From an uncultured Gammaproteobacteria bacterium (GTDB taxonomy: Bacteria; Patescibacteriota; Microgenomatia; CAYXHB01; CAZYTL01): a DNA stretch of 64,000 nt. Location of the stretch: positions 89 through 64,088 of the forward strand of contig CAZYTL010000008.1 in NCBI GenBank assembly GCA_964650355.1, written 5' to 3'. A model generated the notes under the pieces. It ran no database searches and was not told the DNA's origin. It saw only the letters and a program-made list of their open reading frames with translations. This document shows, in pieces, positions 1 to 45,848 of the stretch; position 1 is the stretch's first letter, and every line of letters begins with the position of its first letter. The position numbers and the translations under genes are program-made.

Positions 1-171
1 GGAATTCAAGCCTGAACAAACTGGAAAAGACAATCAAAGAGTAATTTCTTCAAACTTGGCCTTAGATTAAGAGATTCGCTTGGCAACTATCCTGCGTTAA
101 TCGAAGGATTTAACCCAGGCTTTTTGGATTTTTGGATTTGGACTGGAAGGAGGTAACTATTCTCTATTATT

Positions 172-199
172 CTGACTTAATCCGAACTTAAGGTATAAT
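172..199 (+). promoter_or_regulatory. sigma70-like promoter (-35 CTGACT, 16-nt spacer, -10 TATAAT); predicted TSS ~206, the first base of the left inverted repeat
   Basis: ctgact at 172-177 and a perfect tataat at 194-199. The expected TSS, 6-8 nt downstream of the -10, falls on the first base of the 12-bp repeat gagagctgtgac at 206-217. Confidence 0.35.
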
Positions 200-205
200 A
201 ACAGT

Positions 206-356
206 AGAGAGCTGTGACAATCGGTATTTGCTGTTGATTTCACGGCAACTAATTGGATTCTTGACTTTACGCCTAACATAAATAACTTTGTTAGGTATTT
301 AAGTATATAGTTTTTGATTGTTCACTTAGGAAAAGTAGCTTTTAGTCACAGCTCTC
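206..356 (+). ncRNA. putative retron-type msr/msd non-coding RNA flanked by a1/a2 inverted repeats
   Basis: Perfect 12-bp inverted repeat gagagctgtgac (206-217) / gtcacagctctc (345-356). It sits immediately upstream of a retron-type RT, as in retrons. Internal hairpins: ttgctg/cggcaa (~231-251) and a 7-bp stem cctaaca/tgttagg (272-295). An SD aagggg lies after the right repeat, 4 nt before the ATG at 371. Confidence 0.4.
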
Positions 357-370
357 CCTTAAGGGGAATC

Positions 371-1909
371 ATGGATACAATAATACAGAGAAATGATGAA
401 GAACTAGAGAATCTCTTTAGATCCTTAAGCAACAATGATGATATTGCTAACTTGCTTGAGGTAAGCAAAGGAACGTTAATTTACTATGTATACAGACTGA
501 ACAAAAGGCTACAGTACAAAACATATCAAGTTGCTAAACGCAATGGTTCTACCCGGACAATCAGTGCGCCTACGTCCAATATCAAGATATTACAACAGAA
601 ATTTAATTATATTTTTCAGTTAGTATATTCACCGAGAGAATGTGCTTTTGCCTATTCTATGGGTAGGAATGTTATACAAAACGCAAGAGTGCACAAACAG
701 TCACGTGTTCTTCTCAAAATTGACCTTAAAAATTTCTTCGAACAAATACACTTTGGAAGAGTCAGAGGATTCTTTATGTCTGAATACCCCTTTGGTTTTG
801 GAGATAAAGTCGCAACAACACTCGCCAACATTTGCACTTTTGAAGGAAAATTACCCCAGGGAGCACCGACCTCTCCCATCATTTCCAATATGATTTGTTG
901 GGGTTTAGATAGAGATCTCCAGCGTCTGTGTAGAAAACTAAAATGCAAGTACACAAGATATGCTGATGACATAATTATCTCAACAAAGCAGAACGAACTG
1001 CCCCTTGATATCGCAATTAATAATAATGGTGTATGCACAATTGGAGAAAAACTTACTTTCTACTTTGAAAAGCACGATTTTGCGTTAAATTTTGATAAGG
1101 TAAAGATGATCAGATCTAATAAAAGACAGTTAGTAACAGGTTTAGTAACAAACGAAATCGTGAATGTCCCCAGAAAATACATCCATGAATTAAGACTTCA
1201 AATGCGAATATGGGAAAAATACGGTTATAAAGAACTGAGTCAATGTGTCCCAAATCGTACTCATAAAAACCCTAAAAAGCGCATAAAGAACTATAAATGG
1301 ACAATCCAGGGAAGATTGAACTATTTGAAACAAGTGAAAGTTGAGAGTGTTTTAGAAGGGCGGCATTATGATATCTATTTAAAGTTGCAACGTTGGTTTG
1401 ACTATCTAATATTGCGCGACAAATTTAATAGTTTAAAAAGTAGTTCTGCTTATCAAGCTAGAGGCTATGCATTAGAGGATATCTTAAACAAATTATTCGT
1501 CATTAATGGCATTAAAGCAAAAAATCCATTTCGTAGGAGGAAAGGTGCAGATCAAATCGATGGTGCGTTTGTATTAGAAAAAAACAAACACTTTTTAATT
1601 GAGTGTAAATGGATAAAAGATACCGACAAAATTAATAAAGAAATTGATGCTTTTGCCAAAAAACTAGATAGATCCGGAGATGAAATTAGTGGTTTATTCA
1701 TCTCGATAGCAGGGTGGAACGAAAATGCTGTACATAATCTTAAAGAAAGCAAAACTAAAAATATTTTACTGTTAGATGGTAAAGATCTAGAAATAGTACT
1801 AACAAATAGAAAAGTAAGCTTAGATGATTTATTTGCCTGGATGCTAGAAAACTTATCTTTTAAAGCTGAACCTCATATACCAGTTAAAGAATTTTTAAAA
1901 ACCTTTTGA
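371..1909 (+). CDS. retron-type reverse transcriptase fused to a C-terminal Mrr-like PD-(D/E)xK nuclease-fold domain
   Basis: RT motifs read from the translation: Y..AKRNGSTRTISAP, NARVH...LLKIDLKNFFEQI (the NAxxH region), LPQGAPTSPIISN, YTRYADDIIIS (YADD at nt 959-970), and the retron-typical KRQLVTGLVTNE (VTG). The C-terminal ~150 aa carries RGYALEDIL...GADQIDGAFVLEKNKHFLIECKW, a D...(D/E)xK pattern typical of Mrr/restriction-endonuclease-like folds. The longest ORF begins at TTG 314, but that start overlaps the right inverted repeat. ATG 371 has an AAGGGG SD. Confidence 0.8.
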   Translation: MDTIIQRNDEELENLFRSLSNNDDIANLLEVSKGTLIYYVYRLNKRLQYKTYQVAKRNGSTRTISAPTSNIKILQQKFNYIFQLVYSPRECAFAYSMGRNVIQNARVHKQSRVLLKIDLKNFFEQIHFGRVRGFFMSEYPFGFGDKVATTLANICTFEGKLPQGAPTSPIISNMICWGLDRDLQRLCRKLKCKYTRYADDIIISTKQNELPLDIAINNNGVCTIGEKLTFYFEKHDFALNFDKVKMIRSNKRQLVTGLVTNEIVNVPRKYIHELRLQMRIWEKYGYKELSQCVPNRTHKNPKKRIKNYKWTIQGRLNYLKQVKVESVLEGRHYDIYLKLQRWFDYLILRDKFNSLKSSSAYQARGYALEDILNKLFVINGIKAKNPFRRRKGADQIDGAFVLEKNKHFLIECKWIKDTDKINKEIDAFAKKLDRSGDEISGLFISIAGWNENAVHNLKESKTKNILLLDGKDLEIVLTNRKVSLDDLFAWMLENLSFKAEPHIPVKEFLKTF

Positions 1910-2013
1910 AGAATGTTTGATTGTGAAGGAGGATAATTCAAGTGTGAGTGTCAAGATTAGTATGTGAAGGGCAAGATTTTTCACCATTGAGGTTTTTAAG
2001 GTAACCCGACAGT

Positions 2014-2275
2014 ATGAGATTGAATGTAATATTTATTCGTTATGTTTATTTAGGTAAACAGCATGGAAGCTATAAAATCGGTGAATCGAAAAACCCAAGT
2101 CGACGTAGAGAAGATAACACTTTTAGGGCCAGAGCCTTTTAAGTTAATCCATGAGATTAAAACAGATGTTATGAATGGAGTTGAGAAGTACTGGCATGAG
2201 AGGTTTAAATCAAAACACAAAAGAGGTGAATGGTTTAATTTATCTAGCACCGACGTTAAGAGTTTTAAGAGGTAG
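2014..2275 (+). pseudogene. T5orf172 / GIY-YIG-like domain gene interrupted by a +1 frameshift near nt 2104
   Basis: Frame 1 (2014-2142) reads MRLNVIFIRYVYLGKQHGSYKIGESKNPSRR..., which matches the YVY...YKIG(x)T...RR N-terminal motif. Frame 2 (2063-2275) reads ...VEKITLLGPEPFKLIHEIKTDVMNGVEKYWHERFKSKHKRGEWFNLS, which matches the ...E..H..F...R..GEWF C-terminal signature. Skipping one nucleotide at ~2104 joins them into an ~87-aa intact domain. Confidence 0.6.
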
Positions 2276-2347
2276 AAACAACCGTTTGGTAGCTGGGTCT
2301 GCCAATTTAAATAGCTTTTTTATCAGACTGAAGGTATTATTACTAAT

Positions 2348-3154
2348 ATGGGCCGAAGGAGTAGTAAGGCAAAAAAAGTTCTCTTTGTTGGGGCAATGGA
2401 AACAGAACTCCGTCCCTTATTGAAAAGTTTGAAGGCAACAGAAAGCAAGAAACTTATTAACATTTACCCTCTTTATAAAGCACGACACCAAACGGCGGAT
2501 ATATTTGTAGTGGAAACATTTGTAGGAGAAGCTAATGCATCAATCGCGGGTTTTGAAGCGATAAGAGAAGTAAATCCTGATTATGTAATCAAATTTGGAG
2601 CAGTTGGGGGAAGTTATCCTGAAAGCAAAGCCAGGGAGATTATCATTCCACTTGGTTTTTTCCATAGAACAGGATGGATTACTAAAGATCAAAAAACTCA
2701 TATACCAACGGCAGATGCTTCTAAATGGGACTCCATTTACGGTGAAAAAGATTACCAAATTCAAGAAAGTAGACACAATTTAGGCGGCATGTCATATTAT
2801 TTTTCAGTTCCCGAACGTTTACAAAGATTTTGTGAGAATACTCTTCGTAAACATAAGATGAAATACGTTACCGCTTATGTGGGGGGCGGTGATATGTGGA
2901 TGACCAATCAACAGGTGTTAAATAATGTTGCGGCAACGATGCTGCCCGCTTCAGCTACACACAGGCGATTTGTATCTGATATGGAGTCATACTCACTTGC
3001 TCATGCCTGTTACCTGACAAAGAAGCCATTTATCGGATGCTATGTGGTAGCAAGTAACGACTACATTAACGAGCTCTACAACCCGGAACTGGTACCGGCT
3101 CAAATGGAGCGGTTGGTGCCATACGCTCTTGAACTCATAAAGACTTTCGGTTAA
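2348..3154 (+). CDS. PNP_UDP_1 family nucleosidase/phosphorylase (MTA/SAH-nucleosidase-like)
   Basis: Motifs VLFVGAMETEL (the GAMEEE-type N-terminus), GEANASIAGFEAIREVNPDYVIKFGAVGGS, YVGGGDMWMTNQ and SDMESYSLAHAC align with Pfs/MtnN active-site segments. It has a ~60-aa insertion relative to the canonical 230-aa enzyme. Confidence 0.7.
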   Translation: MGRRSSKAKKVLFVGAMETELRPLLKSLKATESKKLINIYPLYKARHQTADIFVVETFVGEANASIAGFEAIREVNPDYVIKFGAVGGSYPESKAREIIIPLGFFHRTGWITKDQKTHIPTADASKWDSIYGEKDYQIQESRHNLGGMSYYFSVPERLQRFCENTLRKHKMKYVTAYVGGGDMWMTNQQVLNNVAATMLPASATHRRFVSDMESYSLAHACYLTKKPFIGCYVVASNDYINELYNPELVPAQMERLVPYALELIKTFG

Positions 3155-3206
3155 TAGCGCTTTTAATGAAGGGCTTAGTGAAAATGGCAAAATCAAGATT
3201 CTCTCT

Positions 3207-3986
3207 TTAAACCTTCACTGCATGGATGACCAGGCCAATGGGGCGATCAATGTATTTAGTAAACCCGGGATTGTATTGCAATAACTCTTTATTTAATTCA
3301 GGTTCGTATAAGGCTTTAACGTTATAGCCGCCTCTCACTACCGCATTAAAGTAATCTTCTATTGTCCACTGTTTTTGGTTGACAGCGAAATTTTTCTCAA
3401 CTTTAACGGCTTGGGCAGGTTTGGTCACACTGACGGTGCCCATGAGATACTTAGAGTCGTTGTGGCTGAAGTAACCCCCTAAGTTGATAAATTTACCGCT
3501 GTCTACACCGGCAGTTTGTTGAGCATAAAAATACAACAAATAAGCGGGGTGAAGCACGGAGAAAATTAATTGACCTTGGGTTTTCAACACTCGATGACTT
3601 TCTTGAAGGGGAATATCAATCACCGCCACCTCATTGAGTACCATATTGGAATAGATCAGATCAACTGTCTTTGATTTAAGTGGCCATTTCTTAGTGATAT
3701 CGTGCTGCAAAAATTTAACTCTGGGATCCGATGTTTTTTCTTTGGCGTGCTCCAAATTAGCCGCTGAGATGTCCATCAGCCAAACAGTGGTGGGGTTTTG
3801 CTTTAAAAAGAGGTTTGCCATATATCCATTGCCACAACCCATTTCCATGACCACTTTTTTCTTTAGTGAGCCGACTTTTTCTAGCATCAGCGGATCCAAA
3901 ACATATCTCTTGTAATCTTCGCCTTCATCACCTACTCGACTGTTCCAAAAATCTGAAAACTCCTGGTCTTGATAGATGGACTTCAT
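3207..3986 (-). CDS. class I SAM-dependent methyltransferase (small-molecule type)
   Basis: Motif I VMEMGCGNGY, an acidic motif II (LMDIS), and a Methyltransf_11/25-like layout. It has no DNA-MTase motifs. The longest ORF extends to 4094, but its first 36 aa are low-quality, so the ATG at 3986 is preferred. Confidence 0.65.
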   Translation of the reverse strand: MKSIYQDQEFSDFWNSRVGDEGEDYKRYVLDPLMLEKVGSLKKKVVMEMGCGNGYMANLFLKQNPTTVWLMDISAANLEHAKEKTSDPRVKFLQHDITKKWPLKSKTVDLIYSNMVLNEVAVIDIPLQESHRVLKTQGQLIFSVLHPAYLLYFYAQQTAGVDSGKFINLGGYFSHNDSKYLMGTVSVTKPAQAVKVEKNFAVNQKQWTIEDYFNAVVRGGYNVKALYEPELNKELLQYNPGFTKYIDRPIGLVIHAVKV

Positions 3987-4079
3987 GATGTAAATATACC
4001 AATAACTATCAAAAGTTTGTATACTTAAACAGGTATTATAGGTATTTCTAATTTGCGAACAAAGCAGTGTAAAACTCTT

Positions 4080-4529
4080 ATGAAAACCAGACATCGGACC
4101 ATCGTTTCCGCTTTAATTATCTCAAAAGACAGGAAAGTTCTATTGGGAAAAGAAGAAGAGGGAGGCGTATATCCGGACTGTTGGCACTTACCCGGCGGGG
4201 GACTGGATGCAGGGGAAACTAAACAGGAGGGGTTACGGAGGGAAATTAAAGAGGAAACGGGTATGGATATCACAGGTTTACCCACGAAGTTATTGTCAGA
4301 CAAGGATACGGGAGAACATGTCAAGACTGATAATAAAACCGGCGAAACTTATCTGGCAAAAATGCAGTTTAATGATTATCAAGTCGAATTGGATAAAAAC
4401 GCTGATGAGGTAAAGATAACTTTAGGTGACGATTTGGTGGAATATCGCTGGGTGTCGATTGGTGACCTGAAAAATTACCACCTGACTCCCCCATCTCAGA
4501 AATTATTTACTTCGCTGGGATGGATTTGA
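4080..4529 (+). CDS. NUDIX hydrolase
   Basis: Nudix box GGGLDAGETKQEGLRREIKEETG (GX5EX7REUXEEXGU). The longest ORF starts at TTG 4053. Confidence 0.75.
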   Translation: MKTRHRTIVSALIISKDRKVLLGKEEEGGVYPDCWHLPGGGLDAGETKQEGLRREIKEETGMDITGLPTKLLSDKDTGEHVKTDNKTGETYLAKMQFNDYQVELDKNADEVKITLGDDLVEYRWVSIGDLKNYHLTPPSQKLFTSLGWI

Positions 4530-4606
4530 AAGTTTCATTCTGCGGCAAAGGGGAAATTGACTTTTGAGGTCGCTTTTGGAGTACTCGGGTTGTACAATTA
4601 GGCCTG

Positions 4607-5107
4607 ATGACCAATGTAACCATCAGAAAACCGAATCTTAAAGATCTGCCGGCTTTAATTGTCTTGTGGCACGGCCAGTACGATTATCATCACGATATTG
4701 ACTCGACTTATTACGTACCCAATTCAAAAGAACTGGATCAAAAATTCAGAAAGTATCTTAAAAAGGCAATTTTAAAAAACGGCCCCTATATTTTGCTGGC
4801 TGAAGTGGATAATGAACCGGTGGGTTTTGTTACCTATGAGAAATCACATGTTGATTATTTTGATACCAAAATCGTGGAGTATGGCGACATTATAGAGCTT
4901 TACGTGCGCCCCGAATACAGAAAACAGGGGATTGGCAAGCAGTTAATGGAAGAGGTGGAGAGGTTTTTTAGAGACAAGGGGATCGAATACCTGAGCCTGG
5001 GGTGCTCTACTTTCAACAAAGACGCGTTGGATTTTTATGAAAATTTCGGGTTTGTTAATAGACAGTCACTGCTTTACAAAAGCCTTCAACATGAGAAAAG
5101 CGACTAA
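4607..5107 (+). CDS. GNAT family N-acetyltransferase
   Basis: Motif A IELYVRPEYRKQGIGKQLM (Q/RxxGxG/A). Confidence 0.75.
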   Translation: MTNVTIRKPNLKDLPALIVLWHGQYDYHHDIDSTYYVPNSKELDQKFRKYLKKAILKNGPYILLAEVDNEPVGFVTYEKSHVDYFDTKIVEYGDIIELYVRPEYRKQGIGKQLMEEVERFFRDKGIEYLSLGCSTFNKDALDFYENFGFVNRQSLLYKSLQHEKSD

Positions 5108-42041: not shown

Positions 42042-42114
42042 GTGAGCCGCCTGGGACTCGAACCCAGAACCGTCCGGTTAAGAGCCGGATGCTCTGCCAA
42101 TTGAGCTAGCGGCC
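42042..42114 (-). tRNA. tRNA-Lys (anticodon CTT)
   Basis: Reverse complement folds with acceptor stem GGGCCGC/GCGGCTC (one G·U pair), anticodon arm TCCGG-CTCTTAA-CCGGA, T-loop TTCGAGT, discriminator A. CCA is not encoded. Confidence 0.9.
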
Positions 42115-42149
42115 CCCTTTTATAAACATTTAAGAGAACAAGCTGTTAT

Positions 42150-42225
42150 CTGGTGCGCCTGGAGGGACTCGAACCCCCAACCTACTGTTCCGAAGACAGC
42201 CGCTCTATCCGTTGAGCTACAGGCG
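42150..42225 (-). tRNA. tRNA-Arg (anticodon TCG)
   Basis: Acceptor stem GCGCCTG/CAGGCGC, anticodon arm GCTGT-CTTCGGA-ACAGT, T-loop TTCGAGT, encoded CCA. Confidence 0.85.
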
Positions 42226-42404
42226 CAAGCTAAACAGTAGCCAAAACGTGGTGTTATCCCTTACTTTACAGGCCAATCATATTATAGCATTCTACCTCCC
42301 AAGTATCAGCTTTAGTTGTGAGCAATCAAAAAGCGTCGGTTTTGTTTCTTTGAGTTCAGTGGAGAGAAATGTTAGAGATCGACCGATATGTAATGAGAGA
42401 TTTT

Positions 42405-42950
42405 TTAGTCCAGCAATTTCTGAAATATAAAAATTACTTCTTTTGCCTGATGTTTATTTCTTAATTCAGATTGGAGTCTTTTTCCTGATTCATAATCAGT
42501 TACTTTCTTTCGGGATATTTCGTTGTGATGTGAATCAAGGGCCACTAATTCATAGGGAAGGTAATTATTTTTTAAATAAAAGTGCTCAACTTTACGATCA
42601 TCTGCCGAAACGACATCAACTTTTGAGAAACCTTTATTTTTGGTAATTTTTTCAAATTCGAAAATTAAATTTGATCCTATACCTTTCCTGGCATACCCCT
42701 TTGTCTGGTCGAGATTGACCGCAATGCCTTGCAAAATGACAGCACCTTCAATTTTTTCTGAAGGACGGCCATAACAAACCCCTATCAGGTTATCCTGGTC
42801 AAGGGCGACCAGATACAAGTCTGGATTTTGTTCGATTCTTTTAACAAATGATGCAAAATTCTCTTTATCTAAATATTCAGATTGAAAAGAGAGAGCTTCA
42901 TGATAATACTTTTTTGATAATGGTTTAATTTTTATGTTCATATACGCCAT
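42405..42950 (-). CDS. GNAT family N-acetyltransferase
   Basis: LQGIAVNLDQTKGYARKGIGSNL (motif A). Confidence 0.7.
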   Translation of the reverse strand: MAYMNIKIKPLSKKYYHEALSFQSEYLDKENFASFVKRIEQNPDLYLVALDQDNLIGVCYGRPSEKIEGAVILQGIAVNLDQTKGYARKGIGSNLIFEFEKITKNKGFSKVDVVSADDRKVEHFYLKNNYLPYELVALDSHHNEISRKKVTDYESGKRLQSELRNKHQAKEVIFIFQKLLD

Positions 42951-42968
42951 AAAATTATTTTTCAGGTA

Positions 42969-43808
42969 ATGAACGGAGAGTTTGAGACGATATGGATGCT
43001 TTTTTATTTTATAATCTTTAGTAGTTGTTTGAAATATATGAGCGAAACTGAATCTCTAGAAGGGTTGGAAAAAGAGAAAAGGAACGAACAAAATTCGTTT
43101 ATCGTGTTTAACGAACCTTTACGACCTGATGACGTTGATGTGGTTCTGGTTCCCTGCCCTTACGATGGCGGTGAAGAAGAAAGAGCTGAAATAGAAGACT
43201 ATTGGTCAAAGCAAAATGAAAAAAGAAAAGCTGAAGGTCGGGGTGAACGATATAATGGGACAATTATTGGTGTTGATGGCTATGTTTATGACGGAAAAAG
43301 ATTATCGGTAAGTCTATACGAAATAGATTATAAAGATCTTCTTGGACTGTGGCATCTAAGAAGGGCTTCTCCTCCTAGAAATGGTTTTACCACTGGATTT
43401 ACCAGAACGAAGGATGGCTACTTTGTATTAGGAACCAAACGTAAAGGTTCACGGATGGGTACCAAGGATGTTCCGGGAGGGATTTTAGAAAAAAGTGAAT
43501 CTCACACAATAACTGCAGGACAAGATTTGTTTCAGTCCCACCAAAACGAGATTGAAGAAGAATTGCCTGTAAGTGATGTGGCGGAGATGGAATTGATAGG
43601 GATAGCTAATAATCAACTATCGATTGGGCTTGTTTTTGAAACTCAATTAGATGTCGACGGGATGACTTTGCAAGAAAAATTTAGGGAGATTGAGAGAGAA
43701 GGAGAGTTTTCTGAGCTCCATTTGATTAACCAACAGCAAGCTAATGATTTTTTTGGTTCAAGTGATGAAGGAGAATATCTTAGATTTCTGGCTCCTTTTG
43801 CTGATTAA
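42969..43808 (+). CDS. Nudix-like hydrolase domain protein
   Basis: DVPGGILEKSE...ITAGQDLFQSHQNEIEEELPV resembles a degenerate Nudix box. An alternative start is ATG 43038. Confidence 0.45.
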   Translation: MNGEFETIWMLFYFIIFSSCLKYMSETESLEGLEKEKRNEQNSFIVFNEPLRPDDVDVVLVPCPYDGGEEERAEIEDYWSKQNEKRKAEGRGERYNGTIIGVDGYVYDGKRLSVSLYEIDYKDLLGLWHLRRASPPRNGFTTGFTRTKDGYFVLGTKRKGSRMGTKDVPGGILEKSESHTITAGQDLFQSHQNEIEEELPVSDVAEMELIGIANNQLSIGLVFETQLDVDGMTLQEKFREIEREGEFSELHLINQQQANDFFGSSDEGEYLRFLAPFAD

Positions 43809-43857
43809 ATGTCCTTTTCAAAAATCTGGAGTGAGCTTAAGATGAAGTCGGAAAGTT

Positions 43858-44136
43858 TTATTCCTGATTCCGAATATATTTATTCCAGTATATAAACATT
43901 CCGATTAGGTTACTAAACACGATTACCAGAACCCACAATAATTTATTCTCAGAATTAACTCTTTTATTTTTTAAGACGTGATAAATATAAAGTGGTTCCA
44001 GTAATAATAATATTAAACATGTAAGTAGACCAAGGAAGAAGATGAGTGGCAATGAGATTAGCCGGGGAACTGTAATCGCTATTAGGATATAAATTACCGG
44101 GAAAAAGGTTAATAAGGTTAAAAGTTTTATATGCAT
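43858..44136 (-). CDS. PLDc_N-domain small membrane protein
   Basis: LLWVLVIVFSNLIGMFIYW matches the PLD-nuclease N-terminal domain (PF13396) pattern. Two TM helices. Confidence 0.55.
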   Translation of the reverse strand: MHIKLLTLLTFFPVIYILIAITVPRLISLPLIFFLGLLTCLILLLLEPLYIYHVLKNKRVNSENKLLWVLVIVFSNLIGMFIYWNKYIRNQE

Positions 44137-44137
44137 G

Positions 44138-44224
44138 CGGCGGGGGAGGGATTCGAACCCTCGTGCCTCTTGCGAAGCGCACGGTTTTCAAGACCGGCCC
44201 GTTAAGCCGCTCCGGCACCCCGCC
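44138..44224 (-). tRNA. tRNA-Ser (anticodon TGA), class II with a long variable arm
   Basis: Acceptor stem GGCGGGG/CCCCGCC, anticodon loop CTTGAAA, T-arm GAGGG-TTCGAAT-CCCTC, discriminator G. Confidence 0.9.
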
Positions 44225-44272
44225 TACCTCTTAATTATAATATATAACTGAACTCAACCCAATATCTTGGCT

Positions 44273-45319
44273 TTAGGCGAAGTGGAGTTTGAGATGAGCG
44301 TAATTGGTGACGGTAAGCACAGCTAAGGCTAGCAGTCCACTCAACAGGCTCAGGTGGCCTAAAAACGAACCGAAGATGATGCGTATCAAGATGGTGTGCA
44401 TGAAATAGATTTTTAGTGAGTGACGGCCTAAAAAGTTAAACAGTTTAGTGGTCAGGTCGCTGACCACCAGCCGCGTTCGCAATCCCCAAATACAGACCAC
44501 TGAGGCGTAGACCAGCACGGGCAAGCGGGTAAATTTTTCCGCCATTAAAGGATCTCTTCCTGTAGTAATGGCCCTGGTAGCCGCCGTGATTAACCACAAC
44601 AAACTCATAAGCAGAAGCCATTTAAGCCAGGGTTGCATTTTTTTCCATGTTGAGGATAACTGGCGGGAAGCCACCAGCGTGCCCAAACCGCAGTAGCCCA
44701 GCCAGCCTAAGATGGGCAGATATTGCCAATAATCAGAGTGAGCTAAGCGGGGAAACCAGCTGGCGAGCAAGCCTGTCTGCAAAAGGAAAACATAGAGTGC
44801 TGAAGTTCCCCCGGTAATCATGATCAGCCAAAACCAGGCACGGTTTAGTCCGCGCAGCAAAGGATAAAGCAAGTAGAATTGAATGATTAAGGGGATGAAA
44901 TAGAATTGATAATCAGCCTGGCCCAAAAGAAAAACTGCCGGCCATTTGTTCCAGGGAATGTGTTCTCCGGTGGTCGACCATTCGGGAATCAACGTCAGCA
45001 ACAGGAAAATTGCTACTGACCACAAAATGTAAGGCGGGAGGATCTTGGTGAATCGTCTCAGGTAAAAGCCGAGTGTACTAAATTTGCGGTTTTGGTACTT
45101 GAGTCCCAGGCCCAGGGCGGAGAGAAACAAAAACATGGGTACGGAAAATCTACTCAATTGATCAAGGATAATGGCTAATTCTTCAGTGGGTTGATGGCGG
45201 GTAATGCTCCAAGGCAAAGCGGAAAGCGTATGCAGTAGGATGACGGCCACAATGGCGATGCCTTTTAGATTCGTGGTGCGCAGTCTGCTATAGGAGTCGG
45301 GAGTTAAGGAGGAGGCCAT
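44273..45319 (-). CDS. acyltransferase family 3 (OafA/YrhL-like) membrane protein
   Basis: ~10 TM helices and N-terminal GIAIVAVILLHT (Acyl_transf_3 signature). Confidence 0.75.
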   Translation of the reverse strand: MASSLTPDSYSRLRTTNLKGIAIVAVILLHTLSALPWSITRHQPTEELAIILDQLSRFSVPMFLFLSALGLGLKYQNRKFSTLGFYLRRFTKILPPYILWSVAIFLLLTLIPEWSTTGEHIPWNKWPAVFLLGQADYQFYFIPLIIQFYLLYPLLRGLNRAWFWLIMITGGTSALYVFLLQTGLLASWFPRLAHSDYWQYLPILGWLGYCGLGTLVASRQLSSTWKKMQPWLKWLLLMSLLWLITAATRAITTGRDPLMAEKFTRLPVLVYASVVCIWGLRTRLVVSDLTTKLFNFLGRHSLKIYFMHTILIRIIFGSFLGHLSLLSGLLALAVLTVTNYAHLKLHFA

Positions 45320-45359
45320 AAGGTGCTTAGTGAAGGGAGTTTAGCAAAACTACAACTTG

Positions 45360-45722
45360 CTAGATCCACTTGTCTTGAGCTGTTAGATTTCCGCCTGTAT
45401 CGCCAGTATTTACTGTTCCGACCGGTTCAACAAGGAGGATTTTACATTCTTGGGCAGCGAACGGTTTATGTTCAACTCCATTAGGAACAACAGCCATTTC
45501 GCCTTTCTTTAAGTTAACGCTTCCGTCTCTAAAATCTATCCGTAGTTCGCCATCTAAGATAATAAAAACTTCGTCAGTATCTTTGTGATCATGCCAGGTA
45601 AAATCTCCTTTAACTCTGGCCAGCTTAAAATGGTAATCATTCATTTGAGCGATAATTTTGGGAGACCATTGATCGGAGAATTTTTTAAACTTCTCCTGGA
45701 AATTAATGGCTTTTGTTTTCAT
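45360..45722 (-). CDS. cupin domain protein
   Basis: [15 protein letters not shown] ... [10 protein letters not shown] (cupin motifs 1 and 2). Confidence 0.7.
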
Positions 45723-45757
45723 GAAGATCAGATTTGTTTAATTAAACCGATAAGAAC

Positions 45758-45848
45758 TGGCGGAGGAGGCGGGATTCGAACCCGCGCGGGACTGTGACAT
45801 CCCTTCGGTTTAGCAAACCGACGCAATAGGCCTCTATGCGACTCCTCC
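45758..45848 (-). tRNA. tRNA-Ser (anticodon GCT), class II
   Basis: Acceptor stem GGAGGAG/CTCCTCC, anticodon arm TCGGT-TTGCTAA-ACCGA, long variable arm, T-arm GCGGG-TTCGAAT-CCCGC, encoded CCA. Confidence 0.9.

What the first reader, a model, noticed from the sequence alone, without database searches (positions are those of the whole stretch)
2014..2275. Frameshifted T5orf172 (GIY-YIG-like) gene between the RT and the PNP gene
Two overlapping reading frames together encode a complete ~87-aa T5orf172 domain: YVYLGKQHGSYKIGESKNPSRR in one frame and VEKITLLGPEPFKL...EKYWHERF...RGEWFNLS in the other. A single +1 slip near 2104 (gtcgacgtagag, not a homopolymer) joins them. This is either a genuine inactivating mutation, an assembly error, or recoding. 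T5orf172 domains are characteristic of phage and mobile-element proteins, so its position inside the RT module is unlikely to be chance. The inactivated-toxin reading is speculative.
Basis: seen in the sequence. Interest (0 to 1): 0.55.

Follow-up and report, generated by a model that had tools for sequence, protein, structure and literature searches.

The report
Dead remnant of homing-endonuclease-like gene
The split T5orf172 reading frames are real, but they are the broken last third of a roughly 241-residue selfish-nuclease gene common in tiny-genome (CPR) bacteria, lying by chance next to a self-contained retron and a housekeeping gene, so this is an ordinary pseudogene.

Summary
Window 2014-2275 carries a T5orf172/MUG113 (GIY-YIG-type) domain split over two frames: the joined sequence scores 48 bits against MUG113, against 33 bits for the longer ORF alone. 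The details need correcting.

- **The lesion.** It is a 2-nt deletion (GAT ATA to GATA) after position 2115, not a +1 slip near 2104.
- **Only a fragment remains.** Intact relatives in Gottesmanbacteria, Parcubacteria and metagenomes are about 241 aa. They have two N-terminal homing-endonuclease-associated repeats followed by a C-terminal T5orf172 domain. The window keeps only residues about 159-236, at 2034-2281. The first 158 codons are found nowhere in the 64 kb.
- **Further damage.** The near-invariant Trp codon five codons before the natural stop is TAG, and a family-invariant Asp is Val. The gene is dead whatever the reads show at the frameshift.
- **Not an assembly artefact.** An independently built Logan contig is identical over 6.9 kb, including the lesions.
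- **Not part of an RT module.**
  - The retron (promoter, ncRNA, RT fused to a PD-(D/E)xK domain; about 190-1909) is self-contained.
  - Four relatives of the RT (44-66% identity) have no T5orf172 or PNP gene beside them.
  - PNP orthologues sit in housekeeping contexts.

Other CPR contigs carry independently decayed copies. Ordinary finding, low interest.

The parts
2034..2281 (+). Whole relic: the 3' third of a ~725-nt gene of the HNH_repeat + T5orf172 family
   Evidence: An nhmmer DNA profile of 14 intact genes matches here: profile positions 471-720 of 789, E = 1.1e-59, envelope 2014-2301. No other part of the profile is found in the 64 kb.
2041..2115 (+). Frame-A coding segment, YVYLGKQHGSYKIGESKNPSRRRED. 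It carries the GIY/YIG-equivalent motifs and the Arg cluster, and equals residues 159-183 of the 241-aa homologue.
   Evidence: tblastn gives 92% identity to the L040/L021 protein (Gottesmanbacteria). The ORF 2014-2142 is listed. The ATG at 2014 follows an in-frame TAA at 2002-2004 and has no counterpart in homologues.
2113..2118 (+). Site of the 2-nt deletion. Ancestral GAT ATA ACA (D I T) is now GATAACA, which shifts the frame by +1.
   Evidence: DNA alignment A1 shows a 2-column gap in the window only. nhmmer shows the same 2-nt gap. Protein HSPs switch from frame 1 to frame 2 here.
2114..2272 (+). Frame-B coding segment, ITLLGPEPFKLIHEIKTDVMNGVEKYWHERFKSKHKRGEWFNLSSTDVKSFKR. This is the rest of the T5orf172 domain, including the catalytic-type Glu of GEWF, and equals residues ~184-236.
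   Evidence: tblastn gives 80-82% identity to L040, L020 and L024. MUG113 scores 33.4 bits on this ORF alone. The invariant Asp of TDD is Val here.
2273..2275 (+). Premature stop: TAG where homologues have TGG (Trp), followed by K-K-I-x and then stop.
   Evidence: Alignment A1, the protein sequences, and Trp present in 19 of 20 members of A4. nhmmer homology continues to 2281, past the stop.
1910..2033 (.). AT-rich spacer of unassignable origin between the RT stop codon and the relic. The 5' breakpoint of the relic lies at its right end (about 2014-2034).
   Evidence: A family protein HMM searched at maximum sensitivity against all three forward frames of 1800-2110 finds nothing upstream of profile position 156. 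There is no similarity to the DNA downstream of related RT genes.
190..1909 (+). Neighbour, not part of the relic: a self-contained retron. It comprises a -10 box at 194-199, an ncRNA at ~203-360 with terminal inverted repeats at 207-218 / 345-356, and an RT fused to a PD-(D/E)xK (Mrr_cat-like) domain at 371-1909.
   Evidence: PADLOC and NCBIfam retron RT hits. RVT_1 plus a weak Mrr_cat_2 hit. Relatives carry PF04471. The ncRNA is conserved in L001, L002 and L044. The fold has z = -4.3. A promoter-like site is present.
2348..3154 (+). Neighbour, not part of the relic: a PNP_UDP_1 / MTA-SAH-nucleosidase-like gene, a conserved CPR chromosomal gene.
   Evidence: Pfam gives 68 bits. Orthologues at 55-67% identity occur in Gottesman-, Woese- and Paceibacteria. 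Their neighbourhoods are housekeeping and lack both an RT and T5orf172.

Best explanation
Window 2034-2281 is a non-functional relic of a gene for a free-standing, homing-endonuclease-like nuclease. The family is widespread in CPR/Patescibacteria.

**The intact protein** is about 241 aa. It has two N-terminal 'homing endonuclease associated repeat' modules (presumed DNA recognition), a variable linker, and a C-terminal T5orf172/MUG113 domain of the GIY-YIG clan (presumed catalysis).

**What happened to this copy**
- It lost about 470 nt at the 5' end: the start codon, both DNA-binding modules and the linker.
- It suffered a 2-nt deletion in GAT-ATA that splits the nuclease domain over two frames.
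- It acquired TGG to TAG near the end, and Asp to Val at an invariant position.

It therefore does nothing. It is decaying foreign DNA in a low-GC patch that also holds an unrelated, self-contained retron (ncRNA plus RT-nuclease fusion), immediately upstream of a housekeeping nucleoside phosphorylase/nucleosidase gene.

**Shown:** the homology, the architecture of intact relatives, the four lesions, the identity of two assemblies, and the lack of conserved linkage to the RT or PNP gene.

**Inferred:**
- that the family behaves as a selfish or mobile nuclease gene;
- that the 5' loss came from insertion of the retron or an associated deletion;
- that decay is fairly recent, since the remaining codons are still 80-92% identical to intact proteins.
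For: 1. **Domain and homology.** The joined sequence scores 48.1 bits for MUG113 and 35.9 bits for T5orf172. Intact homologues P0121, P0122 and P0124 are 69-74% identical across the junction. The DNA profile hit has E = 1.1e-59 and covers profile positions 471-720 of 789 only.
2. **Full-length family.** There are 26 metagenome loci and 4 genome loci (Ca. Gottesmanbacteria LCEX01000054 and LCFP01000001, Ca. Parcubacteria QZIP01000022, a Patescibacteria MAG). ORFs are 240-255 aa. Of 20 members, 20 hit MUG113 and T5orf172, and 10 hit HNH_repeat at E <= 0.01. L036 reaches 34.2 bits against a cut-off of 26. There are 636 50%-identity clusters at E <= 1e-10, and most of the 150 best-scoring ones listed are 237-255 aa.
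3. **Lesions.** The 2-nt gap is seen. No match to residues 1-158 exists anywhere in the window or in L006. TAG replaces TGG. D to V falls at a column invariant in 20 of 20 members.
4. **The family is under strong purifying selection when intact**, with omega 0.04-0.09, so a split, truncated copy is not a tolerated variant.
5. **Independent decay elsewhere.** L008 has a frameshift, L033 is truncated at the 3' end, L037/L043 has two internal deletions plus a shift, and L039 has a 1-nt shift.
6. **Not an artefact.** The Logan contig L006 is identical to the window over 6,909 nt.
7. **Not linked to the retron or the PNP gene**.
8. **Foreign composition.** The RT is 33.7% GC and the relic 35.1%, against 43.6% for the window. 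No 1,540-nt stretch elsewhere is as low as the RT, and only 3% of 248-nt stretches are as low as the relic.
9. **Literature.** T5orf172 is a GIY-YIG subfamily used by phage homing endonucleases, which have a terminal nuclease domain and repeated DNA-binding modules (PMC10448857).
Against: - The two assemblies may derive from the same sequencing run, so they exclude an assembler artefact but not a systematic read error. This matters little, given the other lesions.
- Homing or any mobility of this CPR family has not been demonstrated. Its contexts are merely varied and rich in small GIY-YIG and Bro-N genes.
- The remaining codons show only a slight excess of unusual substitutions: 2 at otherwise invariant columns, against 0-1 in intact members. 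Relaxed selection is therefore not demonstrable from substitutions alone.
- A gene caller does predict the 70-aa ORF, and expression of a fragment cannot be excluded by sequence.
Confidence: 0.88

Rival explanations
1. The relic and the retron arrived together as one mobile island. The T5orf172 nuclease originally provided the mobility (homing) function for the cassette, or marked its integration site, and then decayed once the island was fixed.
For: They are directly adjacent, only 124 nt apart. Both have similarly low GC (33.7% and 35.1%, against 43.6% for the window). There is no terminator-like site between them. T5orf172 homing endonuclease genes sit at boundaries of genetic exchange in phages (PMC10448857). 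One RT relative lies in a phage-like context and another beside a serine recombinase.
Against: None of four RT relatives at 44-66% identity has a T5orf172 gene or remnant (tblastn). None of about 30 T5orf172 loci has an RT nearby. The cassette ends within a few nt of the RT stop codon in relatives.
Confidence: 0.1
2. The frameshift is a sequencing or assembly error and the gene is intact and functional in the organism.
For: The source is metagenome-assembled, no read-level data could be inspected, and the lesion is small (2 nt).
Against: A second assembly is identical over 6.9 kb. The missing bases are two, in a non-homopolymer context. Even with the frame restored, the product would lack residues 1-158 and end at a nonsense codon. 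NCBI's protein set for the 77.8-kb contig holds the RT and the PNP protein but no product for this ORF.
Confidence: 0.02
3. Programmed +1 ribosomal frameshifting (recoding) produces a single ~87-aa T5orf172 mini-nuclease from the two ORFs.
For: The two frames overlap, and a continuous domain results if the ribosome shifts near 2113-2116. An ATG with a weak AAGG motif lies upstream at 2014.
Against: All 20 aligned intact homologues are in frame here. The other disrupted copies are broken at different places and in different directions. There is no slippery run at GAA GAU AAC. The ATG at 2014 has no counterpart in homologues. The family's DNA-binding modules are absent.
Confidence: 0.02
4. The 70-aa ORF (2063-2275), or the pair of ORFs, has been retained as a functional small protein, for example a retron accessory factor or a disarmed toxin/antitoxin-like partner of the RT-nuclease.
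For: The ORF is called by a gene finder and still scores 33 bits against MUG113. It is co-oriented with the RT with no terminator between them.
Against: It lacks the first half of the GIY-YIG-type fold (VYL...YKIG...RRR), so it cannot form the domain. There is no conservation with retron relatives. There is no such component in the main text of the retron classification. The only PADLOC hit is a marginal domain-level match to candidate PDC-S57 (E = 1e-4).
Confidence: 0.03

Closest known systems
T5orf172-class free-standing homing endonuclease genes of phages (ICP1, T5-like and others; Barth et al. 2023, PMC10448857)
   Same: Intact relatives of the relic have the same logic: a T5orf172 (GIY-YIG subfamily) nuclease domain at one terminus and repeated DNA-binding modules making up the rest of the protein. 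Copies are scattered in varied contexts and some are broken.
   Different: The DNA-binding modules here match PF18780 (HNH_repeat), not the CapR/DUF723/DUF4397 zinc fingers of the phage enzymes. The hosts are CPR bacterial chromosomes, and no hit was found in IMG/VR viral contigs. Homing has not been shown. The window copy is only a dead C-terminal fragment.
Degenerating homing-endonuclease genes in the invasion-fixation-decay-loss cycle (Goddard and Burt model; from my own knowledge, not checked in a paper here)
   Same: There are multiple independent inactivating lesions in one copy. Independently decayed copies occur in other genomes, while intact copies remain under strong purifying selection (omega 0.04-0.09).
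   Different: No empty or occupied allele pair was found, so the cycle is inferred rather than observed. The family could instead be a dispensable cellular or defence nuclease.
Retrons with an effector fused to the RT (types I-C Toprim, XI protease, XII TIR; Mestre et al. 2020, PMC7736814)
   Same: The neighbouring RT (371-1909) scores best against exactly these single-gene models over its RT part, and has a conserved upstream ncRNA.
   Different: This concerns the neighbour, not the finding. The fused C-terminal domain is PD-(D/E)xK / Mrr_cat-like rather than Toprim, protease or TIR. Neither T5orf172 nor a phosphorylase is named as a retron partner in the main text of that classification.

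Membership tests
T5orf172 / MUG113 domain (Pfam PF10544 / PF13455, GIY-YIG clan) | Sequence match above the Pfam gathering score | tested here: met
   The joined sequence scores 48.1 bits (cut-off 22.3) and 35.9 bits (cut-off 20). ORF B alone scores 33.4 bits against MUG113.
T5orf172 / MUG113 domain (Pfam PF10544 / PF13455, GIY-YIG clan) | All core motifs (VYL / YKIG tyrosines, the Arg cluster, the Glu of GEWF) on one uninterrupted polypeptide | tested here: not met
   The motifs are all present but split. VYL, YKIG and RRR are in frame A (2041-2115) and GEWF is in frame B (2114-2272). A 2-nt deletion lies after 2115.
CPR family of ~241-aa HNH_repeat + T5orf172 proteins (functional member) | Full-length ORF with two N-terminal repeat modules, a linker and a C-terminal nuclease domain | tested here: not met
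   Only residues ~159-236 are present. A profile search at maximum sensitivity finds nothing for positions 1-155. A TAG replaces the conserved Trp.
CPR family of ~241-aa HNH_repeat + T5orf172 proteins (descent from it) | Specific nucleotide and protein homology to family members | tested here: met
   80-92% amino-acid identity to the Gottesmanbacteria copy (L040). nhmmer gives E = 1.1e-59.
Homing endonuclease gene (mobile, selfish) | Terminal nuclease domain plus a modular DNA-binding region | tested here: met
   This holds for the intact relatives: 20 of 20 have T5orf172 at the C-terminus, and 10 of 20 hit PF18780 at the N-terminus. It does not hold for the window copy.
Homing endonuclease gene (mobile, selfish) | Presence/absence polymorphism at an otherwise conserved site, or demonstrated site-specific cleavage | tested here: inconclusive
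   Contexts differ between loci and include other GIY-YIG and Bro-N genes, but no matched empty site was recovered. Cleavage is not testable with these tools.
Retron accessory / effector gene | Conserved co-occurrence with the RT across related retrons | tested here: not met
   RT relatives at 66, 57, 48 and 44% identity lack it. T5orf172 loci lack an RT.
Retron accessory / effector gene | Belongs to a gene family listed as retron-associated | tested here: not met
   There are no occurrences of T5orf172, GIY-YIG, PNP or phosphorylase in the main text of PMC7736814. Supplementary tables were not searched.
Programmed ribosomal frameshift | Shift site conserved in homologues, with a slippery sequence | tested here: not met
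   Homologues are in frame. The site reads GAA GAU AAC ACU. Other broken copies are broken elsewhere.

The most novel reading that the evidence does not exclude
The retron cassette and the T5orf172 homing-type nuclease gene were once a single mobile unit. In that unit the nuclease would have driven lateral spread of an RT-nuclease defence cassette between CPR genomes, and the relic would be the footprint of that event. A weaker variant concerns the segment coding YKIGK...RRREDITLLG, where lesions of four independent decayed copies fall (window, L033, L037/L043, L039). That segment could be a mutational or recombinational hot spot in this family.
Probability: 0.08. Interest if true: 0.45.

Novelty: new member of a known kind. 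Interest (0 to 1): 0.12.

Why it matters
It matters mainly for annotation.
- The 70-aa 'MUG113' ORF should be flagged as a pseudogene fragment, not counted as a gene or as a retron component.
- The PNP gene should not be read as a retron effector.

A modest by-product is the recognition of a sizeable, unnamed CPR family: about 241 aa, two homing-endonuclease-associated repeats plus T5orf172, and 636 50%-identity clusters at E <= 1e-10. Its members look like free-standing homing endonucleases in bacterial chromosomes and decay repeatedly. That could be of use to people studying selfish nucleases in reduced genomes, but nothing here is surprising to a specialist.

Tried and rejected
- **Rfam** on 1-5000 (E <= 1) and on the whole window at gathering scores found only four tRNAs and nothing at the locus.
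- **The first genome-contig scan with the RT** found nothing. The viral-contig scan with the T5orf172 alignment also found nothing.
- **Extension of the relic up to the RT stop codon.** By eye, and in alignment A1, I suspected weak similarity between 1930-2030 and the family's linker. A family HMM against all three frames at maximum sensitivity (Z = 1) gave nothing upstream of profile position 156, and nhmmer gave nothing either. Rejected.
- **Repeats flanking the retron or the relic** as possible target-site duplications. Only short, chance-level matches were found.
- **dN/dS to date the decay.** Synonymous sites are saturated between the window and every homologue, so no estimate for the window branch was possible. 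Only the family's strong constraint (omega 0.04-0.09) could be read.
- **Leave-one-out count of unique changes at invariant columns.** The window has 2 against 0-1 in intact members, which is too weak to prove relaxed selection.
- **Internal repeat test of the two N-terminal modules** by BLASTP was not significant (E = 0.11). The two-repeat reading rests on the PF18780 hits and the shared sequence pattern, and is less certain than the rest.
- **PDB sequence search** with the full-length homologue found no informative relative.
- **NCBIfam** has no model for the family. **PHROGs** matches only families of unknown function, mostly over the nuclease domain. **PADLOC** gives only a marginal PDC-S57 match.

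Full report
**What is in the sequence.**
Between the stop of the reverse-transcriptase gene (1909) and the start of the PNP-like gene (2348) there are two overlapping + strand ORFs, 2014-2142 (42 aa) and 2063-2275 (70 aa).
- ORF B alone matches Pfam MUG113 (33.4 bits) and, weakly, T5orf172. ORF A alone matches nothing.
- Joined, they score 48.1 bits (MUG113) and 35.9 bits (T5orf172), both above the curated cut-offs.
A DNA profile built from 14 intact homologous genes hits window 2034-2281 with E = 1.1e-59.

**What the intact gene looks like.**
A search of the protein collection with the joined sequence returned three uninterrupted homologues, 69-74% identical across the junction.
- Scanning metagenome and genome contigs with their alignment gave 26 + 4 loci. 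These include Candidatus Gottesmanbacteria (LCEX01000054.1, LCFP01000001.1), Candidatus Parcubacteria (QZIP01000022.1) and a Patescibacteria MAG. Viral contigs gave nothing.
- In those loci the reading frame is 240-255 codons long.
- All 20 aligned full-length members carry MUG113/T5orf172 at the C-terminus. Ten of 20 also hit PF18780, the 'homing endonuclease associated repeat', in the N-terminal part. L036 scores above the gathering score (34.2 against 26 bits).
- The consensus suggests two such modules (residues ~1-60 and ~65-125), though a direct BLASTP of the two halves is not significant.
- An exhaustive HMMER search with P0122 found 636 50%-identity clusters at E <= 1e-10. Most of the 150 best-scoring clusters listed are 237-255 aa, with the match at residues ~90-245. 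About 241 aa is therefore the normal form.
- A terminal T5orf172 nuclease domain plus repeated DNA-binding modules is the architecture described for T5orf172-class homing endonucleases of phages. T5orf172 itself is a GIY-YIG subfamily (PMC10448857).

**The lesions in the window copy.**
1. *5' truncation.* Only residues ~159-236 of the 241-aa protein are represented. tblastn with 20 full-length proteins finds nothing for residues 1-158 anywhere in the 64 kb or in the overlapping Logan contig. nhmmer finds only profile positions 471-720. A protein HMM run at maximum sensitivity on all three frames of 1800-2110 finds nothing upstream of profile position 156. The ATG at 2014 follows an in-frame TAA (2002-2004) and has no counterpart in homologues.
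2. *Frame change.* Frame A remains homologous through RRRED (GAT = 2113-2115) and frame B starts with ITLLG (ATA = 2114-2116). Intact genes read GAC ATT ACT or GAT ATA ACC where the window reads GATA--ACA. The lesion is a 2-nt deletion after 2115, not a +1 slip at 2104.
3. *Nonsense codon.* The ORF ends at TAG (2273-2275) where 19 of 20 homologues have Trp followed by K-K-I-x-stop. Nucleotide homology continues past the stop to 2281.
4. *Substitution.* The Asp of the TDD motif, invariant in all 20 members, is Val.

Intact members evolve under strong purifying selection (pairwise omega 0.04-0.09), so this is not a tolerated variant.

**Artefact or recoding?**
- A Logan contig assembled independently from run SRR14802573 is identical to the window at all 6,909 overlapping positions, lesions included. 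I cannot tell whether the window's own assembly used the same reads. This excludes an assembler artefact rather than every read-level error.
- The 5' truncation and the nonsense codon make the point moot. NCBI's protein set for the 77.8-kb contig contains the RT and PNP products but none for this ORF.
- Recoding is not supported. Every intact homologue is in frame at this point, and the site (GAA GAU AAC ACU) has no slippery run.
- Other disrupted copies are broken elsewhere and differently. L008 has a frameshift near residue 129, L033 is truncated after RRR, L037/L043 has two internal deletions plus a shift, and L039 has a 1-nt shift after YKIGK.

**Is it part of an RT module?** No.
- *The RT is a retron RT.* Its best PADLOC models are RT-TIR_XII, RT-Protease_XI and RT-Toprim_I-C, over residues ~8-326. 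NCBIfam gives the retron TIR and Ec67 families below their cut-offs. It is fused to a C-terminal PD-(D/E)xK domain: Mrr_cat_2 is weak here, while PF04471 is recorded for many ~505-545-aa relatives.
- *The retron is a self-contained unit.* Upstream lie a -10-like TATAAT (194-199) and a structured ncRNA closed by a perfect 12-nt inverted repeat (207-218 / 345-356; fold z = -4.3). The ncRNA sequence is conserved upstream of related RTs: 91% identity to L001 over 207-252 and 324-368, and a 20-nt block identical in L002-L005. The retron is thus a compact unit, ~190-1909.
- *RT relatives lack the supposed partners.* Relatives at 66% (L001, phage-like context), 57% (L044), 48% (L002-L005, next to a serine recombinase) and 44% (L045/L046) have no T5orf172 or PNP gene beside them. 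No T5orf172 family protein matches those loci.
- *The reverse also holds.* None of the ~30 T5orf172 loci has an RT, PNP or other window gene nearby.
- *The PNP_UDP_1 gene is a conserved CPR chromosomal gene.* Orthologues are 55-67% identical in Gottesman-, Woese- and Paceibacteria. They sit beside a DUF1861 protein, peptidase M3, GreA or a Trp repressor.
- *Retron classification.* The main text of the 13-type classification mentions no T5orf172, GIY-YIG, PNP or phosphorylase partner.

**Most likely history (inferred).**
The block 1-2350 is compositionally foreign. The RT is 33.7% GC, the relic 35.1% and the spacers ~35%, against 43.6% for the window. No 1,540-nt stretch elsewhere is as low as the RT. 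A homing-endonuclease-like gene and a retron both landed upstream of the PNP gene. Either the retron insertion or a later deletion removed the 5' two-thirds of the nuclease gene. The leftover then picked up a 2-nt deletion, a nonsense codon and at least one damaging substitution. Because the surviving codons are still 80-92% identical to the Gottesmanbacteria protein, decay is probably recent relative to the family's divergence. Saturation of synonymous sites prevented dating. I cannot exclude that the two elements arrived as one island (about 10%).

**Comparison with known systems, and verdict.**
The relic descends from a family that works like, and is built like, T5orf172-class free-standing homing endonucleases. 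That family differs in having different DNA-binding modules (HNH_repeat-like instead of CapR-type zinc fingers) and in residing in CPR chromosomes rather than phages. Homing itself is untested.
- The window copy fails the tests for a functional member: it has no intact ORF, no DNA-binding region, and a split catalytic domain.
- It also fails the tests for a retron component and for recoding.
- It is an ordinary pseudogene fragment and should be annotated as such. Interest is low.

The neighbouring RT-PD-(D/E)xK retron and the unnamed 241-aa family are recorded as side observations.

Noticed in passing
window 190-1909 (+): A compact retron: a -10-like TATAAT at 194-199, an ncRNA at ~203-360 closed by a perfect 12-nt inverted repeat (207-218 / 345-356), and an RT fused to a C-terminal PD-(D/E)xK / Mrr_cat-like domain (371-1909). 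Full-length relatives of ~505-545 aa are numerous in metagenomes. The RT part scores best against the fused-effector retron types XII, XI and I-C, but an Mrr or restriction-endonuclease fusion is not mentioned in the main text of the 13-type classification.
   Followed up: partly
window 1-2350: A low-GC block (33-36%) against 43.6% for the window as a whole. It covers the retron, both spacers and the T5orf172 relic. The PNP gene (41%) and downstream genes are host-like.
   Followed up: partly
L008 10-689; L033 2693-3235; L037/L043 5685-6159; L039 5737-6458: Independently decayed copies of the same 241-aa family occur in other CPR contigs: a frameshift, a 3' truncation, internal deletions and a 1-nt shift. 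Lesions of L033, L037/L043, L039 and the window all fall within the ~15 codons coding YKIGK...RRREDITLLG. This may be coincidence or microhomology (the second L037 deletion appears to join two Ser-Glu sites in the translated alignment), or a fragile spot.
   Followed up: partly
L021 6756-7007 and 8176-8943; L023 6480-6704; similar genes in L015, L017, L020, L022, L024, L033, L038, L040, L041: Intact family members often lie next to a small stand-alone GIY-YIG gene (83 aa, 7 loci), an unknown 74-aa gene (6 loci) and a Bro-N domain gene (5 loci). These are other selfish- or phage-type genes, which suggests variable islands in CPR genomes.
   Followed up: partly
window 314-370 and 2348-2395: Start-codon discrepancies in the public annotation. 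NCBI's RT product is 531 aa (TTG at 314), which would overlap the ncRNA's 3' inverted repeat, whereas the ATG at 371 follows a GGGGA motif. NCBI's PNP product is 252 aa, but orthologues align over 97-100% of the 268-aa form starting at 2348.
   Followed up: no
window 3207-4094 (-): A class I SAM methyltransferase with a PADLOC hit to mad2 (mads_2, E = 5e-13) over the methyltransferase core only. This is probably a generic domain match rather than a defence system.
   Followed up: no
window 42042-45848 (-): Four tRNA genes, Lys(ctt), Arg(tcg), Ser(tga) and Ser(gct), are the only Rfam gathering-level RNA hits in the window.
   Followed up: no
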